DNA of 64,000 nucleotides from Parcubacteria group bacterium GW2011_GWC1_36_108 (lineage in GTDB: Bacteria; Patescibacteriota; Minisyncoccia; Moranbacterales; GWC2-37-73): assembly GCA_000991245.1 (NCBI GenBank), contig LBRD01000008.1:1686-65685 (forward strand), in the 5' to 3' direction. The position numbers and the translations under genes were made by a program. This document shows positions 2,836-59,068 of the stretch, piece after piece (position 1 is the stretch's first letter; every line of letters starts with the position of its first letter). A model generated the notes under the pieces. It was not told the origin of the DNA, ran no database searches, and worked only from the letters and a program-made list of their open reading frames with translations.

Positions 2836-2892
2836 GGTAGAGACGCAAAATCTGTCAGGCATTGTAGAGACGCAAAATTTTGCGTCTCTACC
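2836..2892. repeat. REP/BIME-like element (copy 1) 3' of the RAYT gene
   Basis: ggtagagacgcaaaatctgtcaggcattgtagagacgcaaaattttgcgtctctacc. It is a 14-bp-arm palindrome (gtagagacgcaaaa/ttttgcgtctctac) preceded by a third direct copy of the arm. Confidence 0.8.
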
Positions 2893-2899
2893 GGGTTAT

Positions 2900-3502
2900 C
2901 TATATCCAAACATTTTCAATATTATTCCGGTCACGTTCCCACATTTCAGGGTTTGTTTGGATATATTCACGAATTTTATTCAATGACTCATCATTTCTGA
3001 TGACGTGATCGTAAAATCGAGGTTGCCAGGTAAAATTCAAATCGTTAATTGTTGCATATTTTTTAACACCAATTTTAAACCCACGAATAATGGATGCCAG
3101 ATTTTTTGATTGTGATCCAAATTTATTTTGTGGACACGGTAGAGACGCAAAATCTGTCAGGCATTGTAGAGACGCAAAATTTTGCGTCTCTACGCATTGT
3201 TGAATATTATTCCAATTTATTTCAATAACAACATGCACGTGATTTGGCATGACCACAAATTCAGATGCGTTCGCATGTGGAAAATGTTGTGGGATTTCTT
3301 GCAAACAATTTTCTGCGATTTTTCCAATCTCATTCAAAATCATTTTTCCATCGATAATTTCTCCAAAAAATTCTTCGCGGTTTTTTGTGCAGATCGTGAC
3401 GAAATACATTCCGTTTTGCGCGTAATCATAATTTTGCAAACGGGATGATTGGATGCGGTATTTGTTTTTGAATTTTTCCGGCATGGGTTTTTTGTCGGGC
3501 AC
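2900..3502 (-). CDS. rayT: IS200/IS605-family Y1 (HUH) transposase of the REP-associated RAYT type, carrying an in-frame REP insertion
   Basis: HUH motif MPNHVHVVIEI and a C-terminal catalytic-Tyr region WQPRFYDHVIRNDESLNKIREYIQTNP. The gene is flanked by REP palindromes. A 57-nt REP copy sits inside the ORF between the HUH and Tyr motifs and translates as VETQNFASLQCLTDFASLP. Confidence 0.8.
   Translation of the reverse strand: MPDKKPMPEKFKNKYRIQSSRLQNYDYAQNGMYFVTICTKNREEFFGEIIDGKMILNEIGKIAENCLQEIPQHFPHANASEFVVMPNHVHVVIEINWNNIQQCVETQNFASLQCLTDFASLPCPQNKFGSQSKNLASIIRGFKIGVKKYATINDLNFTWQPRFYDHVIRNDESLNKIREYIQTNPEMWERDRNNIENVWI
3138..3193. repeat. REP element (copy 2), a near-identical duplicate of copy 1, embedded in frame inside the RAYT coding sequence
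   Basis: ggtagagacgcaaaatctgtcaggcattgtagagacgcaaaattttgcgtctctacg is identical to 2836-2892 apart from the terminal base. Confidence 0.8.
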
Positions 3503-3532
3503 GGTAGAGACGCGATTAATCGCGTCTCTACG
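3503..3532. repeat. REP palindrome variant (gattaat spacer) between the RAYT start and the stop of the giant gene
   Basis: ggtagagacgcgattaatcgcgtctctac is a perfect 11-bp-arm hairpin. The same 28-mer recurs at 20378-20405. Confidence 0.8.
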
Positions 3533-20300: not shown

Positions 20301-20493
20301 TGGCTGCGTGTGCCTGTGAGGAAAACGCGAAAAAACCGATAGCGAAAAATGCCGCCGCCAAGAAAAATCGAACACCCGTAGAGACGCGATTAATCGCGTC
20401 TCTACCATGCGCGTCTCTATCACGATTTTTTGAAAAATATTTTGTTATTTTTACCAATCGCTCATGAGCGAAAGGTTTTGATTTTAGATTCAT
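14324..20493 (-). pseudogene. Giant surface-protein paralog split into two overlapping ORFs (896-aa N-terminal part 17914-20604 and 1197-aa C-terminal part 14324-17917) by a frameshifting intragenic deletion; either a pseudogene or an assembly collapse in repeats
   Basis: The N-terminal ORF has a signal peptide (…GVRFFLAAAFFAIGFFAFSSQAHA|ATAIYYS) and the same module types as 3541-12495. It stops at …AIYYSVGQSVAEKHQLQFGIL*. The next ORF restarts 4 nt earlier, mid-module (MTKTGAVPADITTSTVV…), and carries three C-terminal LamG-like domains. At the junction about 140 nt of an otherwise conserved module are missing. Confidence 0.6.
20378..20424. repeat. REP palindrome (identical 28-mer to 3505-3532) plus a partial extra arm, lying in frame in the 5' region of the giant paralog
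   Basis: gtagagacgcgattaatcgcgtctctac-catgcgcgtctctatcacg, translated in the ORF as …NRDRDAHGRDAINRVSTG…. Confidence 0.75.
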
Positions 20494-33179: not shown

Positions 33180-33265
33180 CAAGAGTTAACTGACAACTTA
33201 TAACTCACAACCTATAACAAAAACTCACAGTTGTTTGTGGTTAGTTGTAAGTTGTTTGTTTGATT

Positions 33266-40961: not shown

Positions 40962-40972
40962 AATATTGTCTG

Positions 40973-41059
40973 TGTCATTCCGGACTTGATCCGGAATCCC
41001 GAGCTTTGGCACACAGGCCTTTCTGCCACGAGAGATACTGAAACAAGTTCAGTATGACA
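40973..41059. repeat. Structured ~87-nt element (copy C, divergent) with TGTCAT…ATGACA termini in the pilD 5' region
   Basis: tgtcattccggacttgatccggaatcccgag…cagtatgaca, with an internal 8-bp hairpin attccgga-cttga-tccggaat. Confidence 0.4.
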
Positions 41060-42083: not shown

Positions 42084-42173
42084 TGTCATCTTGAGCGATT
42101 CGTCAGCAGACGAAGAGTCGAAAGATCTGAACCCGGATCCTCACGTCGCACTGCTGTGCTCCTCAGGATGACA
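42084..42173. repeat. Structured ~90-nt element (copy B) of the TGTCAT…ATGACA family, immediately 5' of a pilin gene
   Basis: tgtcatcttgagcgattcgtcagcagacgaagagtcgaaagatctg…gctgctgtgctcctcaggatgaca. Confidence 0.6.
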
Positions 42174-42275
42174 CTATGATATTATTATCTTTTTAATATT
42201 ATTTATTGTTTTTGCTAAAAAATCGACCTATCTCTTTTAGCGTATATTTAAACTCACACTCAATCTAACAAAAAT

Positions 42276-54397: not shown

Positions 54398-54564
54398 ATG
54401 TTTTTTAGTTTATTTATCTTTATTTATTATACTCCACTCCGAAAAATACACAAAAAAGAGTTCATAAGAACTCTTTTTTAATTTGCGGAGAAGGAGGGAT
54501 TCCTCTTCCTCCGCAATTTCTCGCGAGTACGCAGAGAAATTTCTCCTCCAGAGCCTGGGTTTCT

Positions 54565-54590
54565 AAAAAAGCAAAACCGTTTGCTTTTTT
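54565..54590. terminator. Bidirectional intrinsic terminator hairpin (gcaaaaccgtttgc flanked by A6/T6)
   Basis: aaaaaagcaaaaccgtttgctttttt. Confidence 0.55.
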
Positions 54591-54627
54591 AGAATACCCT
54601 TCGAATCCTTCCTCTTTTTCAAATACA

Positions 54628-54660
54628 TAAAATAGAGTCCCCCAAAAGGGACTCTATTTT
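54628..54660. terminator. Bidirectional intrinsic terminator (perfect 10-bp stem atagagtccc/gggactctat) downstream of tRNA-Ser
   Basis: aaaatagagtcccccaaaagggactctatttt. Confidence 0.6.
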
Positions 54661-54667
54661 ATGTATG

Positions 54668-54754
54668 CGGAGAAGGAGGGATTCGAACCCTCGAGGGGTT
54701 TTACCCCCTGCCTCGTTAGCAGTGAGGTGCTTTCGGCCTCTCAGCCACCTCTCC
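54668..54754 (-). tRNA. tRNA-Ser (anticodon GCT), long variable arm
   Basis: Reverse complement is GGAGAGGTGGCTGAGAGGCCGAAAGCACCTCACTGCTAACGAGG…GGGTTCGAATCCCTCCTTCTCCG. Confidence 0.75.
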
Positions 54755-55756: not shown

Positions 55757-55929
55757 CTAACTTACAACCAACAACAAACAACGTACAACAGGGGCTCTGG
55801 TATTGCTTTATTTTAATTTTTATCGTAGACTGAGTTCTGTCAGATAAAGACTACCTACGATATTGTTTTAATCGTATTTATTGAATTTTGTTGTTAGTTG
55901 TTAGTTGTAGGTTGTTAGTCATAAGAGAA

Positions 55930-56002
55930 GTGCTTGTAGCTCAGTGGATAGAGCGTCTGGTTGCGGTCCAGAAGGTCGCAGGTCCGATTCCTGCCTAGCA
56001 CA
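55930..56002 (+). tRNA. tRNA-Arg (anticodon read as GCG)
   Basis: GTGCTTGTAGCTCAGTGGATAGAGCGTCTGGTTGCGGTCCAGAAGGTCGCAGGTCCGATTCCTGCCTAGCACA. D-, anticodon- and T-stems pair canonically; anticodon loop TTGCGGT. Confidence 0.7.
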
Positions 56003-56174
56003 CAAATGAATGAAATGAGTTTGAGGGCTTGGAGTGAGTGAACGATTTCACTCACGTCAGGAATCGGACGCCGGAGCAATTTTCGTCAGCAGACGAAAAT
56101 GCGAGGCGGTGGCCAGACAAATTTTTGCGTCGGCAAAAATTTAGTCGAGGCCGATTCCTGCCTAGCACACAAAT
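56003..56174. repeat. ~145-nt structured insert bounded by a 24-nt direct repeat of the tRNA-Arg 3' end (att-like duplication)
   Basis: ccgattcctgcctagcacacaaat occurs at 55984-56007 and 56151-56174. The intervening sequence contains three hairpins (gtgagtgaa/ttcactcac; ttttcgtc-agca-gacgaaaa; atttttgc-gtcg-gcaaaaat) and a closing stem caggaatcgg/ccgattcctg. Confidence 0.6.
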
Positions 56175-56310
56175 TTAGCACACACATTTGTCGGAAAATG
56201 TCAGGAATTTAAAGGTCTTGACATTTTTCGATAAAAGGAGTATAATATAAGATTATAGTTTTTTTACAAAAACCAGCACACTTGTTGTGCAAAAACCAGG
56301 AGGTTAACCG

Positions 56311-56760
56311 ATGGAAGAAAAAGAGATAACGATGCTTCGCACCAAGCTCATCAGCACAGCCAGAACACTGCTAACACAGCTTCATGACATTATCCCAGAA
56401 GAACCTCTGGGAAGTTTCAAAGGTGGAGATGGTTTGGAATCAGAAGGAATGATTGTTAACCATACTCAAAATGTGATTGATGTTAGTCGCAAAGAAGGGA
56501 ATGTGGAAATTATCACAGAATGCCTGCGATCGTTAGAAAAAATCGACGAAGGTTCTTACGGCGAATGCGATGAATGCGAAAAGCCTATCGCCACTGGCCG
56601 CTTGAAACTTTCCCCTTATTCCAATCTTTGCACTCAATGCAAAAGCGATCAGGAAAAAGCCAACAAACACCTGTGCATTGTTTCTGATCAGGGACCACAC
56701 TCCTGCGTTAGCATCAAAACAATCAGGCAGCGCCTGTATTCGTGCATCGCACACGCCTAA
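56311..56760 (+). CDS. DksA/TraR-family C4 zinc-finger protein
   Basis: C-terminal CDECEKPIATGRLKLSPYSNLCTQC (C4 finger) preceded by a coiled-coil region. Confidence 0.7.
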   Translation: MEEKEITMLRTKLISTARTLLTQLHDIIPEEPLGSFKGGDGLESEGMIVNHTQNVIDVSRKEGNVEIITECLRSLEKIDEGSYGECDECEKPIATGRLKLSPYSNLCTQCKSDQEKANKHLCIVSDQGPHSCVSIKTIRQRLYSCIAHA

Positions 56761-56857: not shown

Positions 56858-59068
56858 ATGGATTTTTTGAAGATGAAATTGGAAAAACTGCCGCGCATAG
56901 GGATGAAATATGGCGCAATTTTAAAAAAACTCAACATTGAAACGGTGGAGGATTTTTTGTTGCACTTCCCTTTTCGCTATGAAGATTATTCTGAGCGAAT
57001 CTTAATTGAAAATCTTGCCGCTGGCGAAACGGCGACTGTGATGGGAGAAGTTGTCCAAAGTAAATTGGTGCGCACTTGGAAAAAGAAGATGATGATCACG
57101 GAGTGCTTCGTGAGCGACGAAACTGGCACAGTGAGGGCTGTGTGGTTCAATCAACCCTATGTCAGTGATTCACTCACTGCTGGTAAGGGTGTTAGACTTG
57201 CTGGAAAAGTTTCGCAAGATACAAAAGGAATGTTTTTTTCCAATCCAGCTTGGGAACTTTCTTCTCGCACCCCAACCAATACAGGAAGGCTTGTCCCAAT
57301 ATATCCAGAAACTGAAGGGCTTACTTCAAAATGGATTCGTTGGCAAATGCAAAACATGATTAAATATGCTGATGCGCTTATTGATCCAATTCCGGAAAAT
57401 ATTTTAAAAGGTTTACATTTACCAATCCTAAGTGAAGCTGTAAAATCTTTGCACTTTCCAAAAACTCTCAAGGAATTTGAACTTGCGCAAAAACGTTTCG
57501 CTTTTCAACAAATGTTTTTGGTGCAACTTGCAACTCAGCGTGTCAAAATTTCATGGGACAAACAAAATGCTGTTTCAATTGCTTTTAATGAAACGTTAAC
57601 CAAATATTTCGTCGAGTCACTTCCCTTCACTCTCACTGACGCTCAACGCAAAGCCGCCTTTCAAATTTTGAAAGATTTGGAAAAGCCTTTGCCAATGAAT
57701 CGCTTGCTCAATGGCGACGTGGGCAGCGGAAAAACAATCGTGGCCGCTATGGCTTGTTTAAGTGCCATTAATGCTGGTTTTCAAGTTTCAATAATGGCTC
57801 CAACTGAAGTGCTCGCCAAACAACACTATCTAACACTTTGTGGACTATTTAAAAATAGTGAAATAAAAATAGCATTGTTTACCAATTCATATCGTGAGAT
57901 AAATAATTTCCAATTTCCAATTTCCAATTTCCAAATAAATCCAAATGTTGAAAATCCAAAATTAAAAAATACAAAAAAAATACGAGATTCACGGGATGAT
58001 TTTTTAGAAAAATTAAAATCTGGGGAAATTAATTTAGTTATTGGGACTCATGCACTGATTCAAAAAGATATTCATCCTGTTAAATCCCCGACTAATGGTC
58101 GGGGTGCGAAGCAATTTAACAGGGTAAAATTTAAAAATTTAGCTTTAATTATTATCGATGAACAACATCGTTTCGGTGTGGCTCAACGTGCTTTTTTGCA
58201 ACAGCAGATTGCTGATATTAACGACGGCTTGCCTGGTAAGATTCCGCATTTGCTCACGATGACAGCAACTCCGATTCCCCGCACACTGACTTTGGCTTTT
58301 TTTGGAAATCTGGATATTTCAGTGTTGGATGAAATGCCAAAAAATAGAAAACCCATTGTCACTGAGATTATTTTGCCAAGCAAGAGAAAAGATATCTATG
58401 ATTTTGTGCGCAGCGAAATTTCCAAAGGTCATCAAGCTTTTATCATTTTTCCACTTGTTGAAGAATCGGAAAAACTAACTGAACTAAAAGCTGCAACCCA
58501 GGAACACGAAAGATTGTCTCGGGAAATTTTTCCAGATTTAAAATTAGGACTCCTGCACGGAAAATTAAAGGCTAGTGAAAAAGAGCAAGTGATGGCTGAT
58601 TTTAAAGATAAGAAATATAACATTTTAGTCGCCACCAGCGTGGTGGAAGTTGGTATTGATATTCCAAATGCTACTGTGATTGTGATTGAAGATGCAGAAA
58701 GATTTGGTCTTTCGCAACTTCATCAATTTCGCGGACGAGTCGGCAGATCAGACAAACAATCATATTGTTTTCTTTTTACTGGCAGCAAAACCGTCAAAGC
58801 CAAATCGCGCCTAGGTGCAATGGAAAAAACATCCAGCGGTTTTGCGATTGCCGAAGAAGATTTGAAACTGCGTGGTCCCGGAGAATTTCTTGGCACGCGT
58901 CAATCCGGTCTTCCCGACATCGCCATGGAGCATTTGTCCAACGTAAAGCTCATTGAAATCGCCCATGATTATGCCGAGCAAACACTGCAAAACAGTCCCG
59001 ATTTGGCAGACTATCCCCTTTTGCAAAAAGAGCTTGGAAAATTCCAAAGTAATGTACACCTTGAATAA
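56858..59068 (+). CDS. recG: ATP-dependent DNA helicase RecG, with low-complexity in-frame insertions
   Basis: Wedge/OB N-terminal region, helicase motifs GDVGSGKT, DEQHRFGV, TATPIPRT, and a C-terminal domain. The ORF is open upstream to 56678, but the start is assigned at MDFLKMKLEKLP. An insertion …[37 protein letters not shown]… lies between motifs I and II. Confidence 0.9.
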   Translation: MDFLKMKLEKLPRIGMKYGAILKKLNIETVEDFLLHFPFRYEDYSERILIENLAAGETATVMGEVVQSKLVRTWKKKMMITECFVSDETGTVRAVWFNQPYVSDSLTAGKGVRLAGKVSQDTKGMFFSNPAWELSSRTPTNTGRLVPIYPETEGLTSKWIRWQMQNMIKYADALIDPIPENILKGLHLPILSEAVKSLHFPKTLKEFELAQKRFAFQQMFLVQLATQRVKISWDKQNAVSIAFNETLTKYFVESLPFTLTDAQRKAAFQILKDLEKPLPMNRLLNGDVGSGKTIVAAMACLSAINAGFQVSIMAPTEVLAKQHYLTLCGLFKNSEIKIALFTNSYREINNFQFPISNFQINPNVENPKLKNTKKIRDSRDDFLEKLKSGEINLVIGTHALIQKDIHPVKSPTNGRGAKQFNRVKFKNLALIIIDEQHRFGVAQRAFLQQQIADINDGLPGKIPHLLTMTATPIPRTLTLAFFGNLDISVLDEMPKNRKPIVTEIILPSKRKDIYDFVRSEISKGHQAFIIFPLVEESEKLTELKAATQEHERLSREIFPDLKLGLLHGKLKASEKEQVMADFKDKKYNILVATSVVEVGIDIPNATVIVIEDAERFGLSQLHQFRGRVGRSDKQSYCFLFTGSKTVKAKSRLGAMEKTSSGFAIAEEDLKLRGPGEFLGTRQSGLPDIAMEHLSNVKLIEIAHDYAEQTLQNSPDLADYPLLQKELGKFQSNVHLE
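57895..57922. repeat. (AATTTCC)x4 heptanucleotide array inside recG; the same unit as in ligA
   Basis: aatttccaatttccaatttccaatttcc encodes [10 protein letters not shown]. Confidence 0.8.

What the first reader, a model, noticed from the sequence alone, without database searches (positions are those of the whole stretch)
55984..56174. tRNA-Arg 3'-end duplication bracketing a 145-nt highly structured insert
The last 24 nt of tRNA-Arg (ccgattcctgcctagcacacaaat) are repeated exactly 145 nt downstream. This is the hallmark of site-specific integration into a tRNA gene, but the enclosed DNA is far too small for an integrase-bearing element.

Instead it folds into three tight hairpins plus a closing stem (caggaatcgg/ccgattcctg) that uses the duplicated tRNA segment. 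One hairpin (ttcgtcagcagacgaa) also occurs in element B at 42102-42117.

The insert could be a decayed integrative element remnant, a tRNA-linked small RNA, or a miniature att-based mobile element.
Basis: seen in the sequence. Interest (0 to 1): 0.55.

Follow-up and report, generated by a model that had tools for sequence, protein, structure and literature searches.

The report
Conserved folded cassette behind tRNA genes
The small insert after tRNA-Arg is not a one-off integration scar but one copy of an apparently undescribed family of tightly folded, non-coding ~100-170-nt cassettes, as conserved as the tRNA itself, that sit behind several different tRNA genes in Moranbacteria-type (candidate phyla radiation, CPR) bacteria, each framed by copies of its own tRNA's 3' end.

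Summary
A 24-nt exact repeat lies at 55984-56007 and 56151-56174 (20 nt of tRNA-Arg(GCG) plus 4 nt of trailer). It encloses 143 nt with three perfect hairpins and a 12-nt inverted copy of the T-arm.

The scar reading does not hold. The same cassette follows the syntenic tRNA-Arg in at least 12 Moranbacteria species. Its core is 88-99% identical where flanking intergenic DNA is about 50-58%.

Twenty distinct copies support a three-way-junction fold: 40 pairs, 95% paired, 16 pairs with double compensatory changes, 0 of 500 shuffles as good.

The same core also follows tRNA-Asn, tRNA-Leu, tRNA-Ser(UGA) and Ser(GCU)-type ends. Each time its inverted and direct flanks match the adjacent tRNA. Cassettes with other cores follow tRNA-Ser genes, including one in this window.

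Tandem arrays, proximal-insertion patterns, decaying distal copies and terminators placed before the cassette body favour a DNA-level element. My best reading (about 0.4) is a non-autonomous, site-specific insertion cassette that enters at the T-loop and supplies a replacement tRNA 3' end. The main rival (about 0.3) is a processed, tRNA-mimicking non-coding RNA.

There is no match in Rfam, IMG/VR, INPHARED, PLSDB or the searched literature. The recombinase and any expression remain unknown.

The parts
55930..56003 (+). tRNA-Arg(GCG). It has an unusual C55 in the T-loop (TCCGATT), a T6.T67 acceptor mismatch and no encoded CCA.
   Evidence: ARAGORN. Rfam tRNA 65.3 bits. Sequence read.
55984..56007 (+). 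Proximal direct repeat (DR1): T-loop position 55 to the tRNA 3' end, plus 4 nt of trailer.
   Evidence: D2.
56008..56033 (+). Spacer GAATGAAATGAGTTTGA plus an acceptor-5'-strand-like segment GGGCTTGG (56025-56032). The latter can pair with CCTAGC(AC) of either repeat (helix P1, weakly supported). This part is retained in the sister-strain deletion allele.
56034..56055 (+). Hairpin 1 (GTGAGTGAA-CGAT-TTCACTCAC). Its sequence varies between tRNA contexts but it always forms a hairpin.
   Evidence: (compensatory UA>CG and GC>AU changes in L016).
56058..56069 (+). Inverted copy of the T-arm ('anti-T-arm', CAGGAATCGGAC). It is a 12/12 complement of the tRNA at 55982-55993. It pairs over 10 bp with the distal repeat (helix P3).
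   Evidence: I5, I9. Covaries with the adjacent tRNA across Arg/Leu/Ser/Asn contexts.
56069..56108 (+). Helix P4 (CGCC/GGCG) enclosing hairpin 2. The stem varies with compensation and the C-AGYA-G loop is conserved.
   Evidence: helices 2 and 3; 8 of 11 pairs in helix 3 show double changes.
56109..56152 (+). Helix P5 (GGCC..GAC / GTC..GGCC) enclosing hairpin 3. This includes the near-invariant block GAGGCGGTGGCCAGACAAATTTTTGCG..CAAAAATTTAGTCGAGG. The 3' end of P5 uses the first 2 nt of the distal repeat, so the repeat begins at the three-way junction.
56151..56174 (+). Distal direct repeat (DR2): an exact copy of the tRNA 3' end plus CAAAT.
56176..56188 (+). Third, partial repeat TAGCACACACATT. 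Probably the relic of a further, deleted unit.
   Evidence: D1. Interpretation is by analogy with the arrays in L052, L066 and L024.
56036..56182 (+). Segment missing (replaced by ATTT) in the sister-strain type L003/L005/L006/L007/L009. This is a deletion that does not respect the repeat boundaries.
   Evidence: Polarity is set by the outgroups.
56218..56246 (+). Consensus sigma-70-type promoter (TTGACA-17-TATAAT) of the downstream dksA/traR-type gene (56311-56760). It lies outside the cassette and marks the native flank.
   Evidence: Pfam zf-dskA_traR. Conserved in relatives.
54485..54666 (-). Second cassette of the same architecture but a different core, behind tRNA-Ser(GCU) (54667-54754, minus strand). 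It has a terminator-like hairpin at 54623-54666 and an inverted T-loop copy near 54600-54608. Further hairpins follow, then an exact 18-nt copy of the tRNA 3' end at 54485-54502.

Best explanation
The insert is one member of a family of small, non-coding, self-folding cassettes that live at the 3' ends of tRNA genes in Moranbacteria-type CPR bacteria.

Each cassette has five parts:
- the tRNA's own T-loop-to-3'-end segment, sometimes followed by a terminator;
- an inverted copy of that segment;
- a conserved body of two extended hairpins joined in a three-way junction;
- a 3' edge (GTCGAGG) that imitates the 5' strand of a T-stem;
- a second, direct copy of the tRNA 3' end.

I think it is most likely a non-autonomous, site-specific insertion cassette. 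On this model it enters the tRNA gene at the T-loop, brings a replacement 3' end so that the tRNA stays intact, and pushes the old 3' end downstream. The old end then decays.

The inverted copy lets a single strand fold into a duplex imitation of the target. The crossover point then sits at the three-way junction. That fold is what a recombinase supplied in trans would recognise.

Shown here: the architecture, the conservation, the fold, the occurrence at several tRNAs, and the arrays. Inferred: actual mobility, the single-stranded intermediate, and the enzyme.
For: 1. The direct repeat starts in the T-loop and runs past the tRNA end in every case (19-35 nt). It always matches the adjacent tRNA.

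2. One homologous core (near-invariant GAGGCGGTGRCCAGAC-hairpin-GTCGAGG) lies behind tRNA-Arg(GCG), Asn(GUU), Leu(CAA), Ser(UGA) and Ser(GCU)-type 3' ends. Its flanks are re-matched each time. It must therefore have moved between tRNA loci.

3. There are tandem arrays of unlike units in L050 (three units) and L065 (two).

4. L052 equals the truncated unit of L017 plus a complete unit inserted next to the tRNA.

5. The same terminator lies after the cassette in L066 but before it in L024. Serial insertion plus deletion explains this.

6. The window keeps a third partial repeat.

7. In L011 the tRNA-resident 3' end and the inverted copy carry the derived C55 (G in the inverted copy) and the tRNA carries T67. 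The distal copy keeps the ancestral A67, which would pair with T6.

8. Distal copies are often degraded or interrupted (L011, L016, L024, L051, L052) while the body stays intact.

9. An intrinsic terminator stands between the tRNA and the cassette body in L016, L021, L024, L062, L055 and most Ser cassettes. The body is therefore not obviously meant to be co-transcribed.

10. The fold has strong covariation but no strand bias in wobble pairs: 13 G.U against 12 A.C. It folds equally well as DNA on either strand.

11. tRNA 3' ends in these genomes are demonstrably live integration sites. A large-serine-recombinase plus rolling-circle-Rep island is inserted at tRNA-Ser(GCU), upstream of pre-existing cassettes, in L061 and L027.
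Against: - No recombinase is linked to any cassette, and there is none in the 64-kb window.
- No clean empty site was found whose boundaries coincide with the repeats. The two absence alleles examined (L003 type, L017) are imprecise deletions.
- Only one copy of this core occurs per locus or genome fragment seen, unlike an actively proliferating miniature transposon (MITE).
- The tRNA-Arg cassette is syntenic over species whose RecG proteins are only 65-89% identical. Its acceptor-matching sequences track the host tRNA. That fits vertical inheritance under purifying selection, meaning a host function, at least as well as recurrent re-insertion.
- Unequal crossing-over between the repeats can make same-type arrays and keep the repeats identical without any mobility.
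- A double-stranded circle of about 150 bp is sterically unfavourable. A single-stranded or RNA intermediate therefore has to be assumed.
Confidence: 0.4

Rival explanations
1. A host-encoded, processed non-coding RNA that mimics the tRNA. On this reading the cassette is read through from the tRNA promoter. It folds so that its 3' strand (identical to the tRNA's T-stem and acceptor 3' strand plus discriminator) pairs with the inverted copy, forming an extended acceptor/T-like helix with side arms. The tRNA-processing enzymes (RNase P, RNase Z, CCA-adding enzyme) then release it. Alternatively it modulates maturation of the upstream tRNA.
For: Core conservation equals that of the tRNA while the flanks are randomised. 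Covariation is strong in all helices and loop and junction sequences are conserved, as in protein-binding RNAs. The position is directly downstream of tRNA promoters, with no terminator in the window-type arrangement. The topology is acceptor-like stem, side arm, then long helix ending at the discriminator. The element is syntenic across many species.
Against: Strong intrinsic terminators precede the body in many species. There is no G.U over A.C excess on the + strand. The acceptor-like helix P1 is not maintained by covariation (6-7 of 10 pairs). The T-loop is paired away, so the elbow recognised by RNase P and RNase Z is missing. The distal copy that would form the helix is degraded in several lineages although the core is intact. 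There is no Rfam relative. This model does not explain arrays of unlike units or why the RNA must copy the neighbouring tRNA. The element is lost without obvious consequence in close relatives.
Confidence: 0.3
2. A palindrome-associated (PATE-like) derivative of an IS200/IS605-type element, or a REP-like substrate. It would be mobilised as single-stranded DNA by an HUH (Y1) transposase acting on the conserved hairpins. The tRNA 3' end would be carried along as part of the left end.
For: IS200-type Y1 transposase genes (Pfam Y1_Tnp, E 1e-33 to 1e-42) lie directly beside the cassette in two independent loci. These are L050, and L057 where it is absent from the otherwise homologous L061. The window genome has a Y1_Tnp-type (REP-associated-transposase-like) gene and GTAG…CTAC REP palindromes. 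The element is two or three hairpins in about 150 nt and folds well as DNA on either strand. The hairpin-2 16-mer recurs in another small palindromic element at 42099-42114.
Against: IS200/IS605 transposition makes no target duplication. The hairpins of the neighbouring IS200 copies are unrelated in sequence to the cassette hairpins. No GTAG-type REP signature is present. Adjacency in 2 of about 12 loci may only reflect the preference of these IS for hairpin-rich DNA. There are few copies per genome.
Confidence: 0.1
3. An inert scar: attL and attR left fused after internal deletion of a larger integrase-bearing island or prophage that had integrated into tRNA-Arg.
For: The direct repeat is of the classical T-loop-to-3'-end type. 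Larger recombinase-bearing islands do integrate at tRNA 3' ends in these genomes. Deletions are frequent here.
Against: The same roughly 100-nt body is kept at 88-99% identity across species while neighbouring intergenic DNA is unalignable. Compensatory substitutions maintain its helices. The same body recurs at other tRNAs. No full-length parent carrying this body was found in IMG/VR, INPHARED or PLSDB.
Confidence: 0.07
4. A by-product of replication template switching. Palindrome extension around the tRNA terminator would create the inverted copy. Unequal crossing-over would create and homogenise the direct copies. No dedicated function or mobility would be involved.
For: In Ser cassettes, the tRNA 3' end, the terminator and the inverted copy form one long near-perfect palindrome centred on the terminator loop (L025, about 80 nt). 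Quasipalindrome correction would explain why the inverted copy follows the C55 change of the tRNA.
Against: This cannot explain a conserved, covarying body shared between different tRNA loci and species.
Confidence: 0.05

Closest known systems
Genomic islands and prophages that integrate into the T-loop sublocation of tRNA genes via tyrosine integrases, and their non-autonomous derivatives (CIMEs, cis-mobilisable elements flanked by attL/attR). From my own knowledge: Williams 2002 classification; CIMEs of streptococcal integrative conjugative elements.
   Same: The direct repeat runs from the T-loop to just beyond the tRNA 3' end. The tRNA is kept intact by an element-side copy. There is tandem accretion at the same tRNA. 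The distal copy decays.
   Different: The element is 100-170 nt with no gene at all. It has a conserved, covarying single-strand fold. An inverted copy of the target lies inside the element. It is conserved at tRNA level over long evolutionary distances. No integrase was found.
Integron attC sites and ORF-less cassettes, and the folded single-stranded attP of CTX-type phages that exploit XerCD (own knowledge).
   Same: A recombination substrate that is an imperfect hairpin of about 60-150 nt. Its paired arms imitate a double-stranded core site. Structure is conserved more than sequence in some stems. Arrays are built by insertion at one primary site.
   Different: No GTTRRRY/RYYYAAC core sites were seen by eye. 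The presumed crossover lies at the inner (junction) end of the closing helix, not at its base. The primary site is a tRNA T-loop. No IntI or Xer linkage has been shown.
Miniature inverted-repeat transposable elements (MITEs), palindrome-associated elements of IS200/IS605 (PATEs), and REP/BIME elements.
   Same: They are small, non-coding and hairpin-rich. Inverted terminal segments are present. Y1 transposase genes occur nearby in some loci.
   Different: The flanking duplication is long (19-35 nt), variable in length and anchored at a fixed tRNA position. The termini are copies of the target rather than of a transposase site. There are one or few copies per genome rather than many.
tRNA-like processed RNAs and tRNA trailers with function: mascRNA/menRNA, plant mitochondrial t-elements, MHV68 tRNA-miRNA hybrid RNAs (TMERs), and the E. 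coli 3'ETS(leuZ) sponge (own knowledge; some of these surfaced in literature).
   Same: The element lies directly downstream of, or is fused to, a tRNA. It has an acceptor-like helix ending at a discriminator-like base. Hairpins follow a tRNA.
   Different: It has no T-loop/D-loop elbow. It copies the neighbouring tRNA's own sequence. Terminators often lie in between. Expression is untested.

Membership tests
tRNA-integrating genomic island / prophage remnant (tyrosine integrase, T-loop class) | Direct repeat of the tRNA 3' part starting in the T-loop (or anticodon loop) and flanking the element. | tested here: met
   24-nt exact repeat from T-loop position 55. The same pattern is seen at other tRNAs.
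tRNA-integrating genomic island / prophage remnant (tyrosine integrase, T-loop class) | An integrase gene, or a recognisable remnant of one, next to one att site. | tested here: not met
   The 143 nt between the repeats hold no gene-sized reading frame; one 54-codon frame on the opposite strand (55915-56079) spans the tRNA gene and part of the insert. No integrase-like ORF was seen among all window ORFs of at least 120 aa, by motif inspection only. Neighbouring genes are housekeeping.
tRNA-integrating genomic island / prophage remnant (tyrosine integrase, T-loop class) | Empty alleles in relatives whose boundaries coincide with the att repeat. | tested here: not met
   The absence allele lacks 56036-56182, not the repeat-bounded segment. 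Outgroups show it is a deletion.
MITE | Terminal inverted repeats plus a short target-site duplication of fixed length. | tested here: not met
   The inverted/direct copies are target sequence. Duplication length varies from 19 to 35 nt.
MITE | Many near-identical copies dispersed in one genome. | tested here: inconclusive
   Only one copy of this core occurs in the 64-kb window and one per metagenomic locus. Whole genomes were not available.
IS200/IS605-derived PATE or REP/BIME | Subterminal hairpins recognised by a Y1 (HUH) transposase, no target duplication, and for REP a conserved GTAG-type tetranucleotide. | tested here: not met
   A long duplication is present. There is no GTAG signature. 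The hairpins are unlike those of the adjacent IS200 copies. Y1_Tnp genes nearby in 2 loci are only suggestive.
Integron cassette / attC | R''/R' core sites (RYYYAAC…GTTRRRY) at the base of an imperfect hairpin, and an intI nearby or an attC cluster. | tested here: inconclusive
   By eye the motifs are absent. No attC model was available. No integrase is present in the window.
Any described RNA family (Rfam 15) | Covariance-model match at or near the gathering score. | tested here: not met
   Only the tRNA matches. Remaining hits are chance microRNA (miRNA) and small nucleolar RNA (snoRNA) matches far below threshold, and none lies on the cassette's own strand.
tRNA-like processed RNA (mascRNA / t-element type) | An acceptor stem stacked on a T-arm with an intact T-loop, and processing by RNase P / RNase Z. 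| tested here: inconclusive
   An acceptor-like plus long helix is predicted. However, the T-loop nucleotides are base-paired and P1 lacks covariation. Processing is not testable with these tools.

The most novel reading that the evidence does not exclude
A new class of tRNA-gene-specific, gene-less homing cassettes. A roughly 150-nt single strand folds into a three-way junction whose closing helix is a duplex replica of the tRNA gene's T-loop-to-3'-end. This would be a folded att site analogous to integron attC or CTX attP(+). A trans-acting recombinase would insert it at the T-loop while the cassette donates a replacement tRNA 3' end. The result would be CRISPR-like, leader-proximal arrays of 'tRNA-end repeats' in candidate phyla radiation (CPR) bacteria.
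Probability: 0.25. Interest if true: 0.85.

Novelty: new variant of a known kind. Interest (0 to 1): 0.7.

Why it matters
If these are mobile, they would be the smallest site-specific integrative elements known. They would also be an example of a selfish element that survives inside essential tRNA genes by carrying a spare 3' end. That would give a handle on how tRNA genes become integration hot spots in CPR bacteria, whose mobile elements are poorly known.

If instead they are RNAs, they are a conserved, widespread and unannotated non-coding RNA class that copies its neighbouring tRNA. That would point to an unknown link with tRNA processing or surveillance in organisms with minimal genomes.

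Either way, annotation pipelines currently see nothing here. Partial tRNA repeats of this kind could also mislead genomic-island and prophage predictors.

Tried and rejected
- **Rfam.** Searched at gathering and at permissive E-values. Only the tRNA matched.
- **Second or overlapping tRNA or tmRNA.** None found.
- **Protein-based relatives via the downstream dksA-like gene.** Only one distant homologue turned up, so I switched to RecG-anchored loci.
- **Viral origin.** Two core patterns and a right-half pattern gave no IMG/VR hit. A left-half pattern gave 9 hits, all chance matches inside GC-rich phage coding regions.
- **INPHARED phages and PLSDB plasmids.** No blastn match.
- **Strand assignment by wobble pairs.** Inconclusive, 13 against 12.
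- **Family of C-AGYA-G-loop hairpins linking the cassette to 'element B'.** Only 6 such hairpins occur in the window against about 1.2 expected. Only two share the GTCAGCAGAC motif, which is too few to build on.
- **Cassette as the end of the large-serine-recombinase island in L061.** Rejected. The same island end in L027 is followed by a different cassette, so the island inserted upstream of pre-existing cassettes.
- **Body as the reverse complement of the rest of the tRNA.** Similarity stops at the T-loop.
- **Other ideas considered and dropped for lack of the defining features:** small peptide, hammerhead-type junction, bridge RNA, omega-RNA guide, res site, serine-recombinase attP palindrome.
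- **Literature.** Five full-text searches found nothing describing such elements.

Full report
**1. The observation**

ARAGORN and Rfam place tRNA-Arg(GCG) at 55930-56003. The 24-mer CCGATTCCTGCCTAGCACACAAAT occurs exactly twice in the 64-kb window, at 55984-56007 and 56151-56174. None is expected by chance.

The repeat begins at T-loop position 55 and runs 4 nt past the tRNA. The 143 nt between the copies hold three perfect hairpins, at 56034-55, 56079-100 and 56119-142. They also hold a segment (56058-56069) that is a perfect 12-nt complement of the tRNA's T-arm. That segment pairs over 10 bp with the distal repeat. A third, partial repeat follows at 56176-56188.

Folding energy is about 7-9 standard deviations below shuffled controls. 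This holds as RNA and as DNA of either strand.

**2. Context**

The window is from a Moranbacteria-type CPR genome. It is identical to contigs from Rifle-type groundwater assemblies and nearly identical to GCA_000990595.1. Downstream lie a consensus promoter, a dksA/traR-type gene, recG, a phosphomannomutase gene and trpS. All are housekeeping, and I found no integrase in the window.

**3. The 'empty' allele is a deletion**

A sister strain type (L003, L005-L007, L009; 90-98% identical) lacks window 56036-56182 and has ATTT instead. These boundaries do not coincide with the repeat. The first 28 nt after the tRNA are kept, and the distal repeat is gone. Outgroups (section 4) show that the filled state is ancestral.

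**4. Conservation**

RecG-anchored loci from GTDB species representatives show tRNA-Arg(GCG) in the same position in 13 Moranbacteria relatives (RecG 65-89% identical).
- The cassette is clearly present in L011, L012, L013, L014, L016, L021 and L024.
- Divergent versions are present in L015, L018 and L020.
- It is truncated in L017.
- It is absent in L025 and L045.

Against the window, the cassette core is 88-99% identical and the tRNA 91-100%. The 150 nt upstream and the 100 nt downstream are only 48-71% identical, which is close to random.

**5. The fold**

RNAalifold on six species gives the following structure:
- a weak acceptor-like helix P1;
- hairpin 1;
- a closing helix P3 (inverted T-arm copy with the distal repeat);
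- two extended hairpins, P4/hairpin 2 and P5/hairpin 3, meeting P3 in a tight three-way junction.

The single-sequence minimum-free-energy fold reproduces this. The direct repeat begins exactly at the junction.

On 20 distinct copies, 40 pairs are 95.2% paired. Sixteen pairs show changes on both sides. None of 500 shuffles reaches any of the main measures, and sliding the partners drops pairing to 32-49%.

Hairpin-2 stems vary freely with compensation, while its C-AGYA-G loop is kept. The block GAGGCGGTGRCCAGAC-hairpin 3-GTCGAGG is almost invariant.

Wobble pairs give no strand preference: 13 G.U against 12 A.C.

**6. Other tRNAs**

An exact-pattern scan of JGI metagenomes with the invariant block gave 17 loci. 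Besides tRNA-Arg loci, the same core follows:
- tRNA-Asn(GUU) in L055;
- tRNA-Ser(UGA) in L060;
- tRNA-Leu(CAA) in L050;
- 3' ends of Ser(GCU) type in L053, L054 and L056.

In each case the inverted segment and the distal direct copy match that tRNA, not tRNA-Arg.

Cassettes with the same layout but other, distantly similar cores (P4-like helix, CCAGRC motif) follow tRNA-Ser(GCU) and Ser(UGA) in many relatives. One follows tRNA-Ser(GCU) in this window, at 54485-54666 on the minus strand.

A survey of all tRNAs in the loci held finds inverted copies 13-67 nt and direct copies 90-190 nt downstream of these tRNAs. Nothing comparable lies upstream. A covariance model recovers 27 loci, including weaker variants.

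**7. Signs of insertion and turnover**

- L050 carries three unlike units in tandem behind tRNA-Leu, and L065 carries two.
- L052 has the truncated unit seen in L017 plus a complete unit between it and the tRNA.
- L066 and L024 share one terminator. It lies after the cassette in L066 and before it in L024. This is expected if two units once stood in tandem and different ones were lost.
- In L011 the tRNA-resident 3' end has C55 and T67 (a T6.T67 mismatch) and the inverted copy has the matching G. The distal copy has the A67 that would pair with T6.
- Distal copies are interrupted or mutated in L011, L016, L024, L051 and L052, although the body is intact.
- A good intrinsic terminator lies between the tRNA and the cassette body in L016, L021, L024, L062, L055 and most Ser cassettes.

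**8. Recombinases around**

No gene is linked to the cassettes. However, tRNA 3' ends here are live targets. In L061 (and L027, L014, L015) an island integrated at the extreme 3' end of tRNA-Ser(GCU), upstream of pre-existing cassettes. It encodes a large serine recombinase (Resolvase + Recombinase + Zn ribbon) and a rolling-circle Rep.

IS200-type Y1 transposase genes abut the cassette in L050 and L057.

**9. Interpretation**

The combination is best explained by a small, non-autonomous, site-specific insertion cassette. The relevant features are:
- a T-loop-anchored duplication;
- a re-matched inverted copy;
- a shared core at different tRNAs;
- unlike-unit arrays;
- proximal insertion;
- decaying distal copies;
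- terminators before the body;
- no strand bias.

On this model the cassette supplies a replacement tRNA 3' end. It is recognised as a folded single strand in which the target sequence is rebuilt as a duplex ending at a three-way junction. The mobility, the intermediate and the enzyme are inferred, not shown.

The main counter-argument is the tRNA-level conservation at a syntenic site, with host-tracking sequences. That fits a host-selected, processed tRNA-mimicking RNA about as well. I rate the two readings 0.4 and 0.3. An HUH-mobilised variant, an inert scar and a pure template-switch by-product are less likely.

**10. Novelty**

I found no match in any of the following:
- Rfam 15;
- IMG/VR;
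- INPHARED and PLSDB;
- five full-text literature searches.

The closest known things are T-loop-type tRNA integration and CIMEs, folded single-stranded att sites (attC, CTX attP), MITE/PATE elements and tRNA-like processed RNAs. It fails at least one defining feature of each tested family. I file it as a new variant of a known kind (tRNA-targeted integrative DNA). A real chance remains that it is something more unusual.

Noticed in passing
window 54485-54754 (minus strand): tRNA-Ser(GCU) is followed by a cassette of the same architecture: a terminator-like 19-bp hairpin, an inverted T-loop copy, further hairpins, and an exact 18-nt copy of the tRNA 3' end 164 nt downstream. Its core differs from the tRNA-Arg cassette. 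Relatives carry yet other cores at this tRNA.
   Followed up: partly
window 58073-58126 and about 57918-57950 (inside recG): Relative to the sister strain (L003), RecG carries an in-frame 54-nt palindromic insert (CCTGTTAAATCCCCGAC…GTCGGGG…AATTTAACAGG). It also carries a 33-nt TTTCCAA-type tandem-repeat insert. This resembles in-frame palindromic elements such as the Rickettsia RPEs.
   Followed up: partly
window 2864-3531 and 20378-20405: REP-like palindromes GTAGAGACGC…GCGTCTCTAC occur four times. They flank, and one doublet lies inside, a 194-aa Y1_Tnp (IS200-like, REP-associated-transposase-like) ORF at 2900-3484 (minus strand) that reads through the internal copy.
   Followed up: partly
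window 40965-41058 and 42085-42175: Two elements of about 90 nt are bounded by GTCAT…ATGAC and lie after pilin-like genes. The second ('element B') shares the 16-mer TTCGTCAGCAGACGAA with hairpin 2 of the cassette.
   Followed up: partly
L061 4100-10600 (also L027, L014, L015): An island of about 6.4 kb is integrated at the extreme 3' end of tRNA-Ser(GCU). It encodes a large serine recombinase, a rolling-circle Rep (REP_ORF2-G2P) and a DUF4041/T5orf172 protein. The recombinase ORF reads into the tRNA on the opposite strand.
   Followed up: partly
L050 645-1088; L057 1012-1431: IS200-type Y1 transposase genes lie immediately beside the 3' side of cassettes, in convergent orientation. In L057 the IS is absent from the otherwise homologous L061.
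   Followed up: partly
window 55930-56003: tRNA-Arg(GCG) of this clade has C instead of the near-universal U at position 55 and a T6.T67 acceptor mismatch. Both changes lie in the part that the cassette model says is element-supplied.
   Followed up: partly
L001 (GCA_000990595.1, LBTM01000010) compared with the window: This assembly lacks five short stretches (29-42 nt) present in all other identical contigs. One is 41 nt inside tRNA-Arg, and two break the phosphomannomutase gene into three ORFs. These are most likely assembly artefacts.
   Followed up: no
window 55759-55778 / 55887-55906; 33197-33256; L063 upstream of tRNA-Arg: GTTGTTAGTTGT-type heptamer-like repeats and their complement form inverted repeats flanking the region upstream of tRNA genes. 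They recur near the tRNA-Met/Asp cluster.
   Followed up: no
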